A DNA stretch of 49,062 bases from a virus (Duplodnaviria > Heunggongvirae > Uroviricota > Caudoviricetes). This document shows, piece after piece, positions 9,755-44,753 of this stretch; the first letter of the stretch is position 1; every line of letters starts with the position of its first letter. The notes beneath the pieces were generated by a model that saw nothing but the letters and a program-made list of their open reading frames with translations, had not been told where the DNA came from and searched no databases. The position numbers and the translations under genes were made by a program. The DNA lies in the IMG/VR virus record IMGVR_UViG_2917891409_000001, positions 1 to 49,062 of that record; one strand, given 5' to 3'.

Positions 9755-10536
9755 GCTGCCACCTTCTGCTCAGTGGCTTTCTGTTTCAGGAATCCAAGAG
9801 CTTTCACTGCTTCGGCCTGTGTCAGTTCTGACGATGCGCGAATGTCGCGGCGAAATATCTGGGAACAGAGCGGCAATAAGTCGTCATCCCATGTTTTATC
9901 CAGGGCGATCAGCAGAGTGTTAATCTCCTGCATGGTTTCATCGTTAACCGGAGTGATGTCGCGTTCCGGCTGACGTTCTGCAGTGTATGCAGTATTTTCA
10001 ACAATGCGCTCGGCTTCATCCTTGTCATAGATACCAGCAAATCCGAAGGCGAGACGGGCACACTGAATCATGGCTTTATGCCGTAACATCCGTTTGGGAT
10101 GCGACTGCCACGGTCCCGTGATTTCTCTGCCTTCGCGGGTTTTGAATGGTTCGCGGCGACATTCATCCATCCACTCGGTAACGCAGATCGGATGATTGCG
10201 GTCCTTGCGGTAAATCCGGCATGTGCAGGATTCATTGTCCTGCTCAAAGTCCATACCATCAAACTGCTGGTTTTCATTGATGATGCGGGACCAGCCATCA
10301 ACGCCCACCACCGGAACGATGCCGTTCTGCTTATCAGGGAAGGCGTAAATTTCTTTCGTCCACGGATTAAGGCCGTACTGGTTGGCAACGATCAGTAATG
10401 CGATGAACTGCGCATCGCTGGCATCACCTTTAAATGCCGTCTGGCGAAGAGTGGTGATCAGTTCCTGTGGGTCAACAGAATCCATGCCGACACGTTCAGC
10501 CAGCTTCCCTGCCAGCGTTGCGAGTGCAGTACTCAT
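9751..10536 (-). CDS. bet: Red beta single-strand annealing protein
   Basis: 261 aa, [48 protein letters not shown]... as lambda Bet. Confidence 0.95.
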
Positions 10537-10541
10537 TCGTT

Positions 10542-10838
10542 TTATACCTCTGAATCAATATCAACCTGATGGTGAGCAATGGTTTCAACCATGTACCGGA
10601 TGTGTTCTGCCATGCGCTCCTGAAACTCAACATCGTCATCAAACGCACGGGTAATGGCTTTTTTGCTGGCCCCGTGGCGTTGCAAATGATCGATGCATAG
10701 CGATTCAAACAGGTGCTGGGGCAGGCCTTTTTCCATGTCGTCTGCCAGTTCTGCCTCTTTCTCTTCACGGGCGATCTGCTGGTAGTGACGCGCCCAGCTC
10801 TGAGCCTCAAGACGATCCTGAATGTAATAAGCGTTCAT
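10542..10838 (-). CDS. gam: Gam, RecBCD inhibitor (short form; a long form with upstream start is possible)
   Basis: 98 aa, [21 protein letters not shown]... as lambda Gam. Confidence 0.9.
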
Positions 10839-10913
10839 GGCTGAACTCCTGAAAATGGCTGTGAAACTATTGCCCGGGAAATGCCAGGCTGATTAGGAAA
10901 ACAGGAAAGGGGA

Positions 10914-11324
10914 TTAGTGATTCAGGCCGTTGCCTCGTCCGTCGAGAAAAACTTCCACGAGCAAATCACGGGTATAAGTGCGCTCGATGCCGCGATGCAG
11001 ATAAAGCCGTCCGCGTAAATTAGCTGATGCAGTCCAGGTACCATCTTTGTGTTTGACCAGCATTCCTGGCATGACCGCGCCGCGATTAACGGTCTGCGTT
11101 CCGTAATGTTGATGAACCATAAAAACTCCTGCCCGTAAGCTGGGCTGCTGAACATATAGAGACTTCTGCGCGTATTCAGGCGGTGGATGGCCGCCGGTTG
11201 TCATAACTAAGCCGCCTCGTTGAAGCGACTGAGGTATGAAGTGTTGAGTTGATTTCAGCTGGTCACACCGACGTTCACGCGTCCGCTTCACCCCTCGCAC
11301 TCCCCGGAGCCTGCTGAAATTCAA
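10914..11324 (-). CDS. hypothetical protein at N/kil position, first gene downstream of OL-like operators; start uncertain
   Basis: TTG-start ORF with Arg-rich N-terminus (RLRGVRGVKRTRERR); alternative ATG at 11204; not similar to recalled lambda N, Kil or CIII. Confidence 0.35.
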   Translation of the reverse strand: MNFSRLRGVRGVKRTRERRCDQLKSTQHFIPQSLQRGGLVMTTGGHPPPEYAQKSLYVQQPSLRAGVFMVHQHYGTQTVNRGAVMPGMLVKHKDGTWTASANLRGRLYLHRGIERTYTRDLLVEVFLDGRGNGLNH

Positions 11325-11395
11325 GCTGCGGATCTAAGCGGTCATCGCAACGGTGAATCAGGTGGTTGCCGTATCGTTGTGTTGTTGCGATATGG

Positions 11396-11450
11396 TGATA
11401 ATAGCTATTGCTATTGGTGATATCAATACTTATTGCTATTGACTGATGTG
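11396..11450. promoter_or_regulatory. putative OL operator cluster / pL region
   Basis: repeated TTGCTATTG motifs shared with the cI-cro intergenic region. Confidence 0.35.
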
Positions 11451-11559
11451 TTTTGATATTAAATGTTTGATAGCAAAAAGAATTAATTTTGTGACTTGCA
11501 TCGCATAGCGATAACTGAAGCGGGGTTGTGGTGGTTTTTTGAACGGTGTGTGTGATGAG

Positions 11560-11594
11560 GGTAGGGCAAAAGAAAACCCGGCGCGGTGGCCGGG
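11560..11594 (-). terminator. putative intrinsic terminator ending the cI-cassette operon
   Basis: GC hairpin CCCGGC..GCCGGG followed by T-rich tract on minus strand. Confidence 0.4.
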
Positions 11595-11602
11595 TAGCAT
11601 CA

Positions 11603-11794
11603 CTATTCGATTTTTTTAACCATGTAGTTACGTCGTGATGTTCCTAATCTTTCATTGTGAATCTCAGAAACGCTTACTACGAGCGATATTCGTTCACCAA
11701 CTTTATATTTACTTTGAATTTCTCCTAACATATCAATCGGATAAGAAGCCTTTATTTTTCCAAGCTCGCTTGCAATCTCCAATTTCCCGTACAT
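11603..11794 (-). CDS. small hypothetical protein (63 aa), third gene of rex-position cassette
   Basis: ORF directly downstream of the 221-aa gene, same strand. Confidence 0.45.
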   Translation of the reverse strand: MYGKLEIASELGKIKASYPIDMLGEIQSKYKVGERISLVVSVSEIHNERLGTSRRNYMVKKIE

Positions 11795-11868
11795 GGATAA
11801 AATAGCAAGTTCGCCTGATATATGCTCATCCGGTAGCTGAACGACCTTCGTTAAAGCTAAGCGAGCAT

Positions 11869-12534
11869 TCAGTTTTTTATATCTTCTGAAGAAATTGACA
11901 CTTGTCTGGTACCATCACTTAAAGGTCCAATCCAAGTAAGATCAAAGTTAAGACTATATTTTTCGCACTCATTTATGATGTTTTTTAGGTTAGCTGTTGA
12001 TTGCGAACCAATTTCGGCAATTTTAGCCGTGAATGTTTCTTCATCAATGGATGAGAGTAGTGCAAAAATCTCCTTAACAGCATGACTGGATACTGTTTCG
12101 ATGAGCTCGCAAGAACCAGTAGAAAAAGTAACACCTAACTTCGTCGAACCTGGACGCAAGTCTGCCAATCTCATGTCTAATGATTTTTTAACATCAATCG
12201 GCACACGACTAGAATCTTTCCCAGATCCAAGTCGGTAAACTGCTTTCTGTACAAGGGATGCGAGATTACCTGAAATTACAGATAGAATATCTAACGGAAT
12301 AGACCCGAAATCGACCAAAACACCTTTTAATCTCAACTCCATGAAATCACGTAAAGGATGTTGGTTATCGATTGCACGTTGTCTCTCTCGGAGATCGCTC
12401 AGATGGGAGTCAAGTGATCTAAATATAATGTCATCAGCAAATGATCTCCCCTTATTTTGAGCAAGCAGATCCACATCGCGTTGAATGAACGCAATTCGCT
12501 CCTTGAGGGAGTTGAATGTTTTTTCTTCGCTCAT
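11869..12534 (-). CDS. hypothetical protein (221 aa), partner of nucleotidyltransferase gene
   Basis: start overlaps stop of upstream gene by 4 bp; contains RAIDNQH (Rx5H, HEPN-like spacing, weak). Confidence 0.55.
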   Translation of the reverse strand: MSEEKTFNSLKERIAFIQRDVDLLAQNKGRSFADDIIFRSLDSHLSDLRERQRAIDNQHPLRDFMELRLKGVLVDFGSIPLDILSVISGNLASLVQKAVYRLGSGKDSSRVPIDVKKSLDMRLADLRPGSTKLGVTFSTGSCELIETVSSHAVKEIFALLSSIDEETFTAKIAEIGSQSTANLKNIINECEKYSLNFDLTWIGPLSDGTRQVSISSEDIKN

Positions 12535-13004
12535 AACATTACCCTCACGAGGCCTTTAGGATTCTCCTTCCGATCAAAACCAAACCACCCTCTCCAGTAA
12601 CTTCGCCTTTCACTATAATCGATTTCTGGATGATTTTCAGGCAGCAAAAGAACGTCAATGCTGTAGTTTTCTTTAATAAAATCTCTATTTAACAATGAGC
12701 TAACCAATGGCATCAGCGTGTTTGGCAAAGAGTTTAGGGCCAAATAATCGACGACCACGAGTATATCTATATCATCAGGTTCAGGTTTCTCTGTAGTGAA
12801 TGAACCATCGATCCACACTTCAGAAAAACATAGACACTGCTGATTAACAAGTTTAAATTGCTCAATAAGCTGTATAAAATTACAGTATAGCATACTTCTT
12901 CTAACGGATTTTGGGAAGGTGTCGACACAAAGAGACTTGATGCCATCACTATCCATATCATGAAATCCTGCTGTAAGAAGAGGTGGGAAGCTAGGCTTTT
13001 CCAT
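12531..13004 (-). CDS. nucleotidyltransferase-fold protein (pol-beta superfamily, minimal nucleotidyltransferase-like)
   Basis: 157 aa; motif DGSFTTEKPEPDDIDILVVVD fits G[SG]x9-13DxD, later acidic residue in SIDVLLL; sits where lambda has rexA. Confidence 0.6.
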   Translation of the reverse strand: MEKPSFPPLLTAGFHDMDSDGIKSLCVDTFPKSVRRSMLYCNFIQLIEQFKLVNQQCLCFSEVWIDGSFTTEKPEPDDIDILVVVDYLALNSLPNTLMPLVSSLLNRDFIKENYSIDVLLLPENHPEIDYSERRSYWRGWFGFDRKENPKGLVRVML

Positions 13005-13085
13005 CCTAAGTCCTTGTTTATGCCATATAGTGTTCTATTTAATATTCTTGAAAAGAGTGTGCCTTAAAAAGCTACAGGCTAATTA

Positions 13086-13613
13086 TTAACCATGCTTCCT
13101 GTACGTCTGCGGCATGCTCCCAATAACCTTACCGAAGATGAACACCCGGTTCATCTCGTCTTTCTCGATCGGGTCCCACGGTGAGTAGCTCTTGTTATCA
13201 GAGATAACCAGTAGCTTATCCTTCATCATTTGCAGGCGCTTTACATGGGCGGTGTCGTCATACAGAAACGCATAGATACCATCACCGTCGAAAGATTTAA
13301 CCGTGATATCAACGAACAGCAGATCACCTGGTTCGATCGTTCCTGACATGCTGTCACCACGCACGTTAATGATGCGGATATTTTCCGCCTTCCTGCCATC
13401 GAACATGTGACGAGCATCGTCAAACGAGTACTCAACCGAGCGTAGAACTTCTACAAACTCACGGTTGATTACACCCGGCCCAGCACTGACTTCTATATCA
13501 AGAACGTCAATCTTGAAGTATTTGGAATGGTTGACAGCAGGCTTCCCTGATTGTTGACCGTCATTTCTCATCGGGCCTATGCCTGATGAGAGCCACTCTG
13601 TTCGAACACCCAA
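13086..13613 (-). CDS. cI: CI-like repressor, C-terminal S24 peptidase (LexA-like autocleavage) domain fragment
   Basis: GDSM serine motif and downstream Lys; upstream frame is open and joins the HTH fragment if one T of the T6 run at 13634-13639 is removed. Confidence 0.7.
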   Translation of the reverse strand: MGVRTEWLSSGIGPMRNDGQQSGKPAVNHSKYFKIDVLDIEVSAGPGVINREFVEVLRSVEYSFDDARHMFDGRKAENIRIINVRGDSMSGTIEPGDLLFVDITVKSFDGDGIYAFLYDDTAHVKRLQMMKDKLLVISDNKSYSPWDPIEKDEMNRVFIFGKVIGSMPQTYRKHG

Positions 13614-13626
13614 TGCATTAGCTATT

Positions 13627-13779
13627 TCAACAATTTTTTGTTGAGCCGCGTGCGTTGCCGCTTGTTAGTCTCCAGATTGTGGGTTGAGCTACGCCAGACG
13701 CCTTTGCAAGAGCGCCTTGAGACATTCCAGATTGTTCCATCGCTAGGTTTAAGCGATCAGCAAGAGTTTCTTTTTTCAT
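13627..13779 (-). pseudogene. cI: CI-like repressor N-terminal HTH fragment (frameshifted relative to C-terminal domain)
   Basis: MKKETLADRLNLAMEQSGMSQGALAKASGVAQPTIWRL... HTH_XRE pattern, ends prematurely. Confidence 0.65.
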
Positions 13780-13789
13780 AAGTTTTTAA

Positions 13790-13870
13790 TTTATACGCTT
13801 GCGTATTGATGGTCAAAACATGTTTTGCTATTGATTGAATTAATACGCATTGCTATTATCCATTCATTGT
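13790..13870. promoter_or_regulatory. putative OR operators with divergent pRM/pR
   Basis: palindrome ATACGCTTGCGTAT plus repeated TTGC(G)TATTGAT motifs between divergent cI and cro-like genes. Confidence 0.4.
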
Positions 13871-13884
13871 AATACCAATAGGAA

Positions 13885-14118
13885 TTGATAATGACAAATC
13901 AAACCATTCAACTCGCAATCAGTATTACAGGTAGTCAAAAACGACTGGCAGATCTATGCGGTGTAGCCCAGCCCACTGTTTGGCGTTGGCTACACGGTGG
14001 CGGAATTGATGCCCGCTATGTAATGAAAATTGTCTCAGCCACTGGTGGAAAGATTAAACCAGCAGATATTCGTCCCGACCTTGCACCATTGTTTAACGCG
14101 AGTAATTCTGCCGCCTAA
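13885..14118 (+). CDS. cro: Cro-like HTH regulator
   Basis: 77 aa, HTH (LADLCGVAQPTVWRW), divergent from cI. Confidence 0.6.
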   Translation: MIMTNQTIQLAISITGSQKRLADLCGVAQPTVWRWLHGGGIDARYVMKIVSATGGKIKPADIRPDLAPLFNASNSAA

Positions 14119-14142
14119 ACTGCGGCGTTAACTGATAAGGCA

Positions 14143-14688
14143 ATGACTATGCAACCACTTACATACCAACAGACTAGCGGATTTAGCCCGACTGCGGTGA
14201 TAAATCGTTCTCAAACAAAACAGGCGCCAGGCCACGAAAAAATCCGTGATGCCGTTCGCGCCTGGTCGGCTGCAGATAATCAGGATGTTGTTGCCGCACT
14301 CATTGTGAATGAGTATCGGGAGCAGGGCGGCGGCACCATCGATTTCCCTGATGATGTCAGCCGTGCACGCCAGAAGCTGTTCCGCTTCCTCGATAACAAA
14401 TTCGATTCTGAAAAATACCGAAATAACGTGCGTGAACTGACCCCGGCAATTCTGGCGGTACTACCGCTGGAATATCGCGGCCACCTGGTTGAGCAGGATA
14501 GCTTCATGGCTCGGTTGGCTGAAATGGAAAAGGAACTCAGTGAGGCAAAGCAGGCGGTCATTCTCAACGCACCACGCCACCAGAAACTGAAGGAAATGAG
14601 TGAAGGTATTGTGTCGATGTTTCGTGTGGACCCGGATCTGGCTGGTCCATTAATGGCGATGGTGACCACCATGCTGGGGGCAATATGA
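14143..14688 (+). CDS. hypothetical regulatory protein at cII position
   Basis: 181 aa between cro-like gene and O; not lambda CII-like by sequence. Confidence 0.4.
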   Translation: MTMQPLTYQQTSGFSPTAVINRSQTKQAPGHEKIRDAVRAWSAADNQDVVAALIVNEYREQGGGTIDFPDDVSRARQKLFRFLDNKFDSEKYRNNVRELTPAILAVLPLEYRGHLVEQDSFMARLAEMEKELSEAKQAVILNAPRHQKLKEMSEGIVSMFRVDPDLAGPLMAMVTTMLGAI

Positions 14689-14773
14689 CAGGTTCAGAAA
14701 TGGCGAAAGCGGTCTGCGGGAACAGAGCCGACTTTCAGGTGCAAATCGTAACGCACTCATTGCGGAAGGAATT

Positions 14774-15703
14774 ATGGCAAACACTGCTGAGATATTCAAT
14801 TTTCCAGTGCCGGATGAGGCACAAAAGGAGCGGCGCGTGGCAGATCTCGATGATGGTTATACGCGCATTGCAAATGAGTTGCTGGAAGCTGTGATGCTGG
14901 CCGGATTAACACAGCACCAGCTTCTGGTCTTTCTGGCTGTCATGCGCAAAACATATGGCTTTAATAAAAAACTGGATTGGGTTAGCAACGAGCAACTTTC
15001 CGAATTAACCGGGATATTGCCGCACAAGTGTTCTGCTGCAAAAAGTGTTCTGGTAAAGCGTGGGATTTTTATTCAGAGCGGGCGGAATACCGGCATTAAT
15101 AATGTGGTCAGTGAATGGTCAACATTACCCGAATCAGGTAAGAAAAATAAAGTTTACCTGAAAGAGGTAAATTTACCTGAATCAGGTAAAAAAAGTTTAC
15201 CCAAATCAGGTAAAGACGTTTACCCGAATCAGGTAAACACAAAAGACAAAATAACAAAAGACAATATAAAACCTTATTCGTCCGAGAATTCTGGCGAATC
15301 CTCTGACCAGCCAGAAAACGACCTTCCTGTGGTGAAACCGGATGCTGCGATTCAGAGCGGCAGCAAGTGGGGGACAGCAGAAGACCTGACCGCCGCAGAG
15401 TGGATGTTTGACATGGTGAAGACCATCGCGCCATCAGCCAGAAAACCGAATTTTGCAGGGTGGGCTAACGATATCCGCCTGATGCGTGAACGTGACGGAC
15501 GTAACCACCGCGACATGTGCGTGCTGTTCCGCTGGGCATGCCAGGACAACTTCTGGTCCGGTAACGTGCTAAGTCCGGCCAAACTCCGTGACAAGTGGAC
15601 CCAACTCGAAATCAACCGTAACAAGCAACAGGCTGGAGTGACAGCCGGAAAATCAAAACTGGACCTGACAAACACTGACTGGATTTATGGGGTGGATTTA
15701 TGA
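14774..15703 (+). CDS. O: replication initiator O
   Basis: 309 aa; internal iterons; C-terminus matches recalled lambda O. Confidence 0.85.
   Translation: MANTAEIFNFPVPDEAQKERRVADLDDGYTRIANELLEAVMLAGLTQHQLLVFLAVMRKTYGFNKKLDWVSNEQLSELTGILPHKCSAAKSVLVKRGIFIQSGRNTGINNVVSEWSTLPESGKKNKVYLKEVNLPESGKKSLPKSGKDVYPNQVNTKDKITKDNIKPYSSENSGESSDQPENDLPVVKPDAAIQSGSKWGTAEDLTAAEWMFDMVKTIAPSARKPNFAGWANDIRLMRERDGRNHRDMCVLFRWACQDNFWSGNVLSPAKLRDKWTQLEINRNKQQAGVTAGKSKLDLTNTDWIYGVDL
15120..15275. repeat. ori: ori iterons (about five TACCYGAATCAGGTAA-like repeats) plus AT-rich tract inside O
   Basis: direct repeats read in sequence; established lambda ori architecture. Confidence 0.7.
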
Positions 15704-42166: not shown

Positions 42167-44692
<2,526 letters not shown>

Positions 44693-44753
44693 CGCCAGCA
44701 GACTGGATCAGTTTTCCAAAGAGTGGAAAGACGCCAACGATAAATGGAATGCC

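What the first reader, a model, noticed from the sequence alone, without database searches (positions are those of the whole stretch)
11603..13004. Uncharacterised three-gene cassette at the rexAB position, directly downstream of cI
Directly after the cI-like repressor, on the same strand and before a terminator and the OL-like operators, sit three genes with no lambda counterpart: a 157-aa protein with a pol-beta nucleotidyltransferase signature (DGSFTTEKPEPDDIDILVVVD), a 221-aa protein whose start overlaps it by 4 bp, and a 63-aa ORF. In lambda this slot holds rexA-rexB, expressed from pRM in the lysogen, and it is a known hotspot for exclusion genes in lambdoid prophages. The segment is markedly AT-rich compared with flanking phage DNA. 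The nucleotidyltransferase-first, partner-second order resembles MntA/HepT-type toxin-antitoxin or Abi modules, but the partner is larger than a typical HepT and carries only a weak Rx5H motif.
Basis: partly seen in the sequence, partly recalled or inferred. Interest (0 to 1): 0.85.

Follow-up and report, generated by a model that had tools for sequence, protein, structure and literature searches.

The report
Two-gene candidate phage-defence cassette beside cI
The "three genes" after the phage repressor are really two, a small nucleotidyltransferase and a 310-residue partner split here by a one-base frameshift; the pair is already listed as the untested defence candidate PDC-M63 and its function is still unknown.

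Summary
The gene count is wrong. The 221-aa and 63-aa ORFs are residues 1-220 and 248-310 of one 310-aa protein (B). It is split by a missing base in a T-run at 11873-11878. B is uninterrupted in phage PhiR30_1, in all 54 IMG/VR loci and in every listed full-length match among about 96 E. coli genomes.

cI, O, J, L, kil and orf60a carry similar frame breaks, nearly all in homopolymer runs. That points to sequencing error, or less likely a decaying prophage.

Gene A (157 aa, DUF6932) is a minimal pol-beta-type nucleotidyltransferase with its catalytic residues conserved. B has no Pfam domain, no conserved catalytic residues and no conserved Rx4-6H motif. Its C-terminus models as an OB fold, so B is not HEPN.

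The pair matches PADLOC candidate PDC-M63, which was predicted by guilt-by-embedding. One published deletion test in its native host showed no defence.

A-B is always adjacent with a 4-nt overlap. It sits directly downstream of a cI-like repressor in at least 41 of 54 viral loci. The slot holds other cargo in near-identical phages. Defence expressed in the lysogen is the best reading, but it is unproven.

The parts
13086..13779 (-). cI-like repressor (HTH + S24 peptidase). In this window it is split into 50-aa and 175-aa ORFs by an extra T in the run at 13634-13639.
   Evidence: Pfam HTH_31/HTH_3 on the 50-aa ORF and Peptidase_S24 (E 7e-19) on the 175-aa ORF. Indel against PhiR30_1. Removing one T gives a 230-aa ORF.
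13785..13897 (.). OR-like operator and divergent promoter region (pRM/pR).
   Evidence: Repeats and promoter-like sites. ATTGCTATT has an exact copy at 13849 and near copies at 13824, 13871 and 13877.
13005..13085 (-). cI-A intergenic spacer of 81 nt with no predicted promoter or terminator on the coding strand. Co-transcription with cI is inferred from this.
   Evidence: The scan of 11200-14200 finds no minus-strand promoter or terminator here.
12531..13004 (-). Gene A: 157-aa DUF6932 minimal nucleotidyltransferase (PDC-M63A). G67-S68, D78 and D80 are invariant and D117 is nearly invariant.
   Evidence: Pfam PF22014 E 4e-26. PADLOC PDC-M63A E 7e-43. Alignment A2. Model pLDDT 96. Top Foldseek PDB hits are MNT-type nucleotidyltransferases. 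Sub-threshold hits to nucleotidyltransferase Pfam families in 18-26 of 58 members.
11603..12534 (-). Gene B: a 310-aa partner (PDC-M63B, phrog_6603) with an N-terminal helical and alpha/beta region and a C-terminal OB fold. Here it is broken into 221-aa and 63-aa ORFs.
11873..11878 (.). Frameshift site in B. The window has T6 (A6 on the coding strand). PhiR30_1 and every listed full-length E. coli match have one more base.
   Evidence: (matches span 1412 nt against a 1411-nt query).
11576..11595 (-). Intrinsic terminator closing the cI-A-B unit, equivalent to tIMM of lambda.
   Evidence: ACCCGGCCACCGCGCCGGGT followed by TTTCTTTT, with 7 stem pairs of which 6 are G-C.
11398..11441 (-). OL-like operators and pL-like promoter.
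   Evidence: Promoter-like site TTGATA-17-TATTAT at 11426-11398. Repeats at 11400-11416 and 11425-11441. Exact ATTGCTATT at 11407 and 11432.

Best explanation
Anatomy. This is a two-gene accessory ('moron') cassette of the PADLOC candidate family PDC-M63. It lies in the immunity region of a lambdoid phage or prophage, between cI and the terminator that precedes OL/pL. It is therefore most likely transcribed with cI from pRM in the lysogen.

The two proteins. Gene A is a catalytically intact minimal nucleotidyltransferase and the only enzyme in the pair. Gene B is translationally coupled to A through an ATGA overlap. B is a 310-aa non-catalytic partner with an N-terminal helical region, a middle alpha/beta region and a C-terminal OB fold.

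Proposed function and mechanism (inferred). The pair is a superinfection-exclusion or abortive-infection module expressed in the lysogen. B holds A in check through its N-terminal region. B uses its OB fold to bind a ligand that appears on infection, either single-stranded nucleic acid or a phage protein. A then transfers a nucleotide to a target and growth of the incoming phage stops. The target could be a nucleic-acid 3' end brought by B, or a protein hydroxyl group.

The frameshift. In this window B is split by a one-base homopolymer frameshift. Because cI, O, J, L, kil and orf60a are broken in a similar way, this is most likely a sequencing or assembly error.

Confidence by layer:
- Two-gene PDC-M63 unit with a frameshift: about 0.95.
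- Defence function: about 0.55.
- The specific mechanism: about 0.25.
For: One gene, not two:
- phrog_6603 and PDC-M63B cover both fragments.
- A one-base repair restores 310 aa.
- B is intact in PhiR30_1, in 54 of 54 IMG/VR loci and in every listed full-length match among about 96 E. coli genomes.

Nucleotidyltransferase:
- DUF6932 hit, with G67-S68, D78 and D80 invariant and D117 nearly invariant.
- pLDDT 96 and top PDB matches to MNT-type nucleotidyltransferases.
- Nucleotidyltransferase Pfam families recur among family members.

B is non-catalytic with an OB fold:
- Only S130 and W201 are invariant across 70 diverse homologues.

Obligate pair:
- A lies upstream of B with a 4-nt overlap in 53 of 54 viral loci; in the remaining locus, L041, a full-length A lies at the same position.
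- The pair also occurs in Edwardsiella, Serratia, Pseudoalteromonas, Bermanella and Psychroserpens.

Defence association:
- PDC-M63 was derived by embedding within BREX, DISARM, type I RM and Hma systems.
- A cI-like gene lies directly upstream in at least 41 of 54 viral loci.
- Diverged copies (A 61-78% identical) occupy the same slot in prophages with other immunity types, one of them near sieB.
- The slot is swapped for GevT/GevA and other cargo in near-identical phages.
- The Psychroserpens copy lies next to a Lit-type Peptidase_U49 gene.

Expression: there is no promoter or terminator between cI and A, and the terminator follows B directly.

Error pattern: 12 of 33 single-base indels against PhiR30_1 lie in homopolymer runs; they, plus one indel outside a run in O, break seven genes whose proteins are otherwise well conserved (96-100% identity for the five checked).
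Against: - Deleting PDC-M63AB in its native host E. coli NILS69 did not change infection by 10 virulent phages.
- The depositors of PhiR30_1 left both genes as 'hypothetical', although they named defence genes in sister phages.
- The OB domain is not consistently basic (family median pI 6.8), so nucleic-acid binding is not assured.
- The structural matches for A are weak (best E 5e-3, TM 0.35).
- The middle of the B model is low-confidence (pLDDT 41-52 over residues 101-150).
- No A:B complex model could be made.
- Co-transcription with cI is inferred from sequence only.
- Without the reads, a real pseudogene cannot be excluded.
Confidence: 0.5

Rival explanations
1. Type VII toxin-antitoxin logic, as in MntA-HepT. 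B is a growth-inhibiting toxin that acts by binding through its OB fold. A is the antitoxin that keeps B inactive by nucleotidylylating it, possibly on the invariant Ser130 in a beta-hairpin loop. Phage infection would tip the balance.
For: - Gene order is nucleotidyltransferase first, with a 4-nt overlap, as in MNT-HEPN pairs.
- The top structural neighbours of A include MNT antitoxins 7ae2_B, 8xeo and 6m6u.
- B has an invariant Ser in a flexible loop.
- A with a truncated B is tolerated: the Treponema 92-aa B, and this window if its frameshift is real.
Against: - B is not HEPN, has no conserved catalytic residues and R53x5H59 is not conserved.
- No toxicity data exist.
- Ser130 may be conserved for structural reasons only.
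- An IS3 insertion between A and B is tolerated in strain OkiPb01716, but this is uninformative about which protein is toxic.
Confidence: 0.2
2. One reading: three separate genes, including an independent 63-aa protein, form an MntA/HepT-like module.
For: Three ORFs are present in the window as sequenced.
Against: - The 63-aa ORF is the C-terminus of B.
- All 54 viral loci and every listed E. coli match have one uninterrupted 310-aa gene.
- The break lies in a homopolymer run, and similar breaks occur in cI, O, J and L.
Confidence: 0.03
3. A non-defence moron. The pair would serve the lysogen or the prophage in another way, for example by modifying a host RNA or protein for fitness, by modulating prophage induction, or by countering a host system.
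For: - There is no defence phenotype in the only test.
- Both proteins lack any characterised relative.
- cI-adjacent slots also carry non-defence cargo, such as a lipoprotein in PhiR26_1.
Against: - The pair also occurs outside prophages: embedded in RM, BREX or DISARM loci, next to a Lit-like peptidase, and in primase-bearing integrative elements.
- This distribution is typical of mobile defence cassettes and hard to reconcile with a lambdoid-specific regulatory role.
Confidence: 0.2
4. The frameshift in B is real. The window would then be a decaying, defective prophage in which the cassette is a pseudogene and A survives alone.
For: At least seven genes are broken, including the essential O, J and L. 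Eight of the 13 unpaired single-base indels cluster at 7.9-14.7 kb.
Against: - All but one of the breaks lie in homopolymer runs.
- The proteins checked in the early region remain 96-100% identical to the intact PhiR30_1 versions, with no accompanying decay.
- No other copy among about 150 shows the same break.
- This pattern is more typical of homopolymer miscalls.
Confidence: 0.2

Closest known systems
PDC-M63 (PADLOC phage defence candidate; cassette CAS_00189, FAM_00167>>FAM_00523, of Payne et al. 2024, bioRxiv 10.1101/2024.01.29.577857)
   Same: Both proteins match the family HMMs: A at E 7e-43 and B at E 6e-32, with the C-terminal fragment at 3e-4. It is a two-gene, same-strand unit.
   Different: Nothing distinguishes it. 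This is a member. The family itself has no demonstrated function, and its one native-host deletion test was negative.
MntA-HepT / MNT-HEPN type VII toxin-antitoxin systems
   Same: A small minimal nucleotidyltransferase with GS...DxD is encoded first and overlaps the partner gene. MNT antitoxins are among the best structural matches for A.
   Different: The partner is 310 aa, is not HEPN, has no conserved Rx4-6H and ends in an OB fold. A belongs to DUF6932, reaches other nucleotidyltransferase Pfam families only below threshold, and has no sequence-level PDB relative.
Lambda rexA-rexB
   Same: Same position (cI, cargo, terminator, OL/pL) and the same inferred pRM-driven expression in the lysogen.
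   Different: No sequence relationship. The Pfam and PADLOC scans gave no Rex hits. The domain content is different.
AbiE / MenAT nucleotidyltransferase toxins (DUF1814)
   Same: Two-gene modules in which a nucleotidyltransferase-fold protein is the active component (established knowledge).
   Different: No DUF1814 hit. A is about half the size. Gene order is reversed, since the toxin is second in AbiE and MenAT (from established knowledge, not tested here).

Membership tests
PDC-M63 (PADLOC candidate) | First protein matches the PDC-M63A HMM | tested here: met
   PDLC04744, E 7.4e-43, residues 1-156 on profile positions 1-148 of 152.
PDC-M63 (PADLOC candidate) | Second protein matches the PDC-M63B HMM over its full length | tested here: met
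   The 221-aa fragment hits six PDC-M63B HMMs (best E 6e-32, profile positions 22-201 of 309). The 63-aa fragment hits positions 246-305 (E 3e-4). The repaired ORF is 310 aa.
PDC-M63 (PADLOC candidate) | Genes adjacent on the same strand | tested here: met
   4-nt overlap in the window and in 53 of 54 viral loci; a full-length A is also present in the remaining locus, L041.
PDC-M63 (PADLOC candidate) | Anti-phage activity | not testable with these tools
   Listed as an untested candidate. Deletion in NILS69 had no effect on 10 virulent phages.
pol-beta-type nucleotidyltransferase superfamily | hG[GS] motif, DxD and a third acidic residue, all conserved | tested here: met
   G67, S68, D78 and D80 are invariant and D117 is at least 90% conserved in 58 sequences.
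pol-beta-type nucleotidyltransferase superfamily | Nucleotidyltransferase fold | tested here: met
   Model pLDDT 96. Top Foldseek PDB hits are 2rff, 7ae2_B, 1no5 and 8xeo, with probability up to 0.93 but weak E-values (5e-3) and TM 0.35. Sub-threshold Pfam hits to DNA_pol_B_palm (26 of 58), Polbeta (23 of 58) and NTP_transf_2 (18 of 58).
MNT-HEPN (MntA/HepT) type VII TA | Partner is a HEPN-domain RNase with a conserved Rx4-6H motif | tested here: not met
   No HEPN Pfam hit for B. Only single chance-level HEPN hits among 70 homologues. H59 of R53x5H59 is invariant only within Enterobacterales and is lost in the wider family, where only S130 and W201 are invariant. The fold matches are OB, not a helical bundle.
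MNT-HEPN (MntA/HepT) type VII TA | The nucleotidyltransferase nucleotidylylates the toxin | not testable with these tools
   This needs mass spectrometry or an in vitro assay.
Lambda RexAB | Homology to RexA and RexB | tested here: not met
   No Rex family among the Pfam, PADLOC, NCBIfam or PHROG hits.
Lambda RexAB | Located between cI and the terminator before OL/pL | tested here: met
AbiE / MenAT (DUF1814 nucleotidyltransferase toxins) | Nucleotidyltransferase of the DUF1814/AbiEii family | tested here: not met
   No such Pfam hit in A or in any of 58 homologues at E up to 0.1.
OB-fold proteins (C-terminus of B) | Five-stranded barrel with a helix between strands 3 and 4, and structural similarity to known OB folds | tested here: met

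The most novel reading that the evidence does not exclude
The DUF6932 nucleotidyltransferase and its OB-fold partner form a mechanistically new class of immunity expressed in the lysogen. In this reading a minimal nucleotidyltransferase is controlled by a non-HEPN, non-catalytic sensor. On infection it nucleotidylylates either the partner's invariant Ser130 or a nucleic-acid end held by the OB fold. Protection would be mainly against temperate phages, which would explain the negative result with a virulent-phage panel.
Probability: 0.2. Interest if true: 0.7.

Novelty: already known. Interest (0 to 1): 0.4.

Why it matters
About 2% of complete E. coli genomes carry this exact cassette, and many lambdoid prophages of Enterobacterales carry relatives. 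It sits in the classical rexAB position and is co-oriented with the repressor. If it is active, it would add a nucleotidyltransferase plus OB-fold mechanism to prophage-encoded immunity. It would also give a function to Pfam DUF6932 and to an unannotated 310-aa family with 274 clusters at 50% identity. For the scan, the practical lesson is that this window carries many homopolymer frameshifts. Small 'extra' ORFs next to truncated genes in it should be read as fragments, not as genes.

Tried and rejected
- HEPN or HepT identity of B: rejected.
- Rex homology: none.
- An independent 63-aa gene: rejected.
- Programmed frameshift in B: rejected, because about 150 other copies are uninterrupted.
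- Sequence search of PDB with profiles of A and B: nothing meaningful, even at E up to 10 for A.
- Pfam scan of 70 diverse B homologues: no recurrent family.
- NCBIfam: no meaningful hit.
- Rfam on 10500-15000: no RNA family.
- Literature: no paper mentions DUF6932 or the RefSeq/GenBank accessions. 'GevT' was not found.
- Brenes & Laub 2025 (Cell Host Microbe 33:1004) is the source of the PhiR phages and is the paper most likely to have tested this slot. It is not held and could not be read.
- My initial recollection that 'PDC-M' meant Millman candidates was wrong. The PDC sets come from Payne et al.'s guilt-by-embedding study.
- The search for related loci with the diverse alignment A3 failed for lack of conserved stretches, so A1 was used instead.
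- An A:B complex prediction was not possible with the tools.

Full report
OBSERVATION

On the minus strand the window has ORFs at 12531-13004 (157 aa), 11869-12534 (221 aa, ATGA overlap with the first) and 11603-11794 (63 aa). They follow a cI-like repressor whose pieces carry HTH and Peptidase_S24 domains.

GC falls to 0.37-0.43 over 11600-13000, against about 0.50-0.53 on either side. The only minus-strand intrinsic terminator in 11200-14200 is at 11595-11576, eight bases after the last stop. A pL-like promoter follows at 11426-11398. The 9-mer ATTGCTATT has exact copies in the 49-kb window only at 11407, 11432 and 13849, which mark the OL- and OR-like operator clusters that bound the immunity region.

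THE GENE COUNT IS NOT

PHROG family phrog_6603 has 310 positions. It matches the 221-aa ORF at positions 1-220 (E 9e-127) and the 63-aa ORF at 248-310 (E 3e-30). The PADLOC PDC-M63B models map the two fragments the same way.

The closest phage record, PhiR30_1 (PV340558.1), is 98.8% identical over 11400-13900. It has one 933-nt gene here and an intact cI. The window lacks one base in a T-run (T6 at 11873-11878). Adding it restores a 310-aa ORF.

The cassette is at least 99% identical in 98 of 5,426 complete E. coli genomes. Every full-length match listed spans 1412 nt against the 1411-nt query and is annotated as two genes. All 54 IMG/VR loci that carry the gene have it uninterrupted.

cI is split by an extra T at 13634-13639. 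Against PhiR30_1, 12 of 33 single-base indels across about 30 kb of alignable sequence lie in homopolymer runs. These, plus one indel outside a run in O, break orf60a, kil, B, cI, O, L and J. The proteins checked in the early region stay 96-100% identical. This pattern fits homopolymer miscalls better than decay, but only the reads can settle it.

THE PROTEINS

A is a DUF6932 protein (PF22014, E 4e-26; PDC-M63A, E 7e-43). In 58 homologues spanning Gammaproteobacteria, Bacteroidota and Spirochaetes, G67-S68, D78 and D80 are invariant. D117 and a C-terminal RSYWRGWFGFDR...PKG motif are nearly so.
- The model has pLDDT 96.
- Its best PDB neighbours are minimal nucleotidyltransferases: 2rff, the MNT antitoxins 7ae2_B and 8xeo, and HI0073. 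The scores are weak (E 5e-3, TM 0.35).
- 18-26 of the 58 members give sub-threshold hits to NTP_transf_2, Polbeta or DNA_pol_B_palm.
- No solved structure is related at the sequence level.

B has no Pfam family. The family has 274 clusters at 50% identity, and almost all full-length members listed are about 300-325 aa. Across 70 diverse members only S130 and W201 are invariant.
- The model has pLDDT 71.5. It shows two long N-terminal helices, a mixed alpha/beta region of lower confidence, and a well-modelled C-terminal barrel at 229-310.
- The OB domain is not consistently basic (median pI 6.8), so its ligand is open.
- The 63-aa 'third gene' is most of this OB fold.

CONTEXT

A precedes B with a 4-nt overlap in 53 of the 54 viral loci; the 54th, L041, also carries a full-length A at the same position. 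A cI-like HTH-S24 repressor lies directly upstream on the same strand in at least 41 of them.

Diverged pairs (A 61-78% identical) occupy the same slot in E. coli and Salmonella prophages with different cI, Cro, N and replication modules. One of them lies near sieB.

In phages whose flanks are about 95% identical to the window, the slot instead holds GevT/GevA, other two- or three-gene sets, or a lipoprotein gene.

Outside lambdoids the pair occurs in several settings:
- DUF927-primase integrative elements of Edwardsiella and Serratia.
- Pseudoalteromonas, near a Tn3-family transposase gene fragment and mercury-resistance (mer) genes, and Bermanella.
- Psychroserpens (Bacteroidota), beside a Lit-type Peptidase_U49 gene.

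WHAT IS KNOWN

PDC systems are the 145 untested candidates that Payne et al. derived from genes embedded in BREX, DISARM, type I RM and Hma loci. PDC-M63 is cassette CAS_00189 in that set.

One study deleted PDC-M63AB, which was prophage-borne, in E. coli NILS69 and saw no change for 10 virulent phages. No held paper mentions DUF6932 or these accessions. The PhiR phages come from Brenes & Laub 2025, which I could not read. Their GenBank record leaves A and B as 'hypothetical'.

MECHANISM

Shown: a conserved, obligately paired, translationally coupled nucleotidyltransferase and OB-fold protein, in a repressor-linked, terminator-bounded slot.

Inferred: co-transcription with cI, a defence role, A as the effector enzyme, and B as a non-catalytic regulator or sensor.

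The main rival is MntA/HepT-like logic, with B as the toxin and A modifying it, perhaps at Ser130. Membership of MNT-HEPN fails on the defining HEPN partner. Resemblance to RexAB is positional only.

VERDICT

This is a real cassette, correctly located but miscounted. It is already catalogued as PDC-M63 and is common in E. coli. Its function remains unknown. Interest is moderate.

Noticed in passing
window 13634-13639 (cI, 13086-13779): The cI repressor is split into 50-aa and 175-aa ORFs by an extra T in a homopolymer run. Removing one T restores a 230-aa HTH-S24 repressor.
   Followed up: yes
window 7910, 8927, 11120, 11521, 13783, 14709, 32803, 32817, 40220, 44667, 45179: There are further unpaired single-base indels against PhiR30_1, almost all in homopolymer runs. 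They break orf60a, kil, the O N-terminus, tail protein L and tail-tip protein J (840-aa and 271-aa ORFs at 42170-45569). Eight of the 13 unpaired indels cluster at 7.9-14.7 kb. This points to sequence-quality problems across the window, or to a defective prophage.
   Followed up: partly
window 11291-11426: Only about 100 nt separate the pL-like promoter from the kil-like ORF. No N-type antiterminator or cIII gene is apparent at the usual position, here or in the PhiR30_1 annotation. How leftward antitermination works in this phage is unclear.
   Followed up: no
L002 (PhiR47_2), L012 (4A7), L011 (PhiR68_2), L013 (PhiR70_1), L010 (PhiR26_1): With near-identical cI and pL flanks, the cI-adjacent slot carries at least five alternative cargos. 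These include a pair annotated GevT toxin / GevA antitoxin (with an ASCH domain), for which I found no paper.
   Followed up: partly
L019:141-3112 (Psychroserpens burtonensis contig VOSB01000054.1): The A-B pair is followed by a Peptidase_U49 (Lit-type) gene and a DUF6933 gene. This may be a small defence island in a Bacteroidota genome.
   Followed up: no
L017:563-1293 and L018:1799-2529 (Treponema): DUF6932 is followed, with a 4-nt overlap, by a 92-aa protein that matches only the N-terminal two helices of B (hhalign probability 97%). The arrangement appears in two independent contigs. This suggests that the N-terminal hairpin of B is a separable module, possibly the part that binds A.
   Followed up: partly
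L020:4994-6156 (E. coli OkiPb01716, NZ_AP042701.1): An IS3 element is inserted between A and B. It slightly shortens A (154 aa) and uncouples B from it.
   Followed up: no
E. coli hits H65-H69: Related prophages that carry this early region also encode a DUF4041-domain protein, the domain of the recently described SNIPE membrane nuclease. Several defence loads may therefore sit on one prophage lineage.
   Followed up: no
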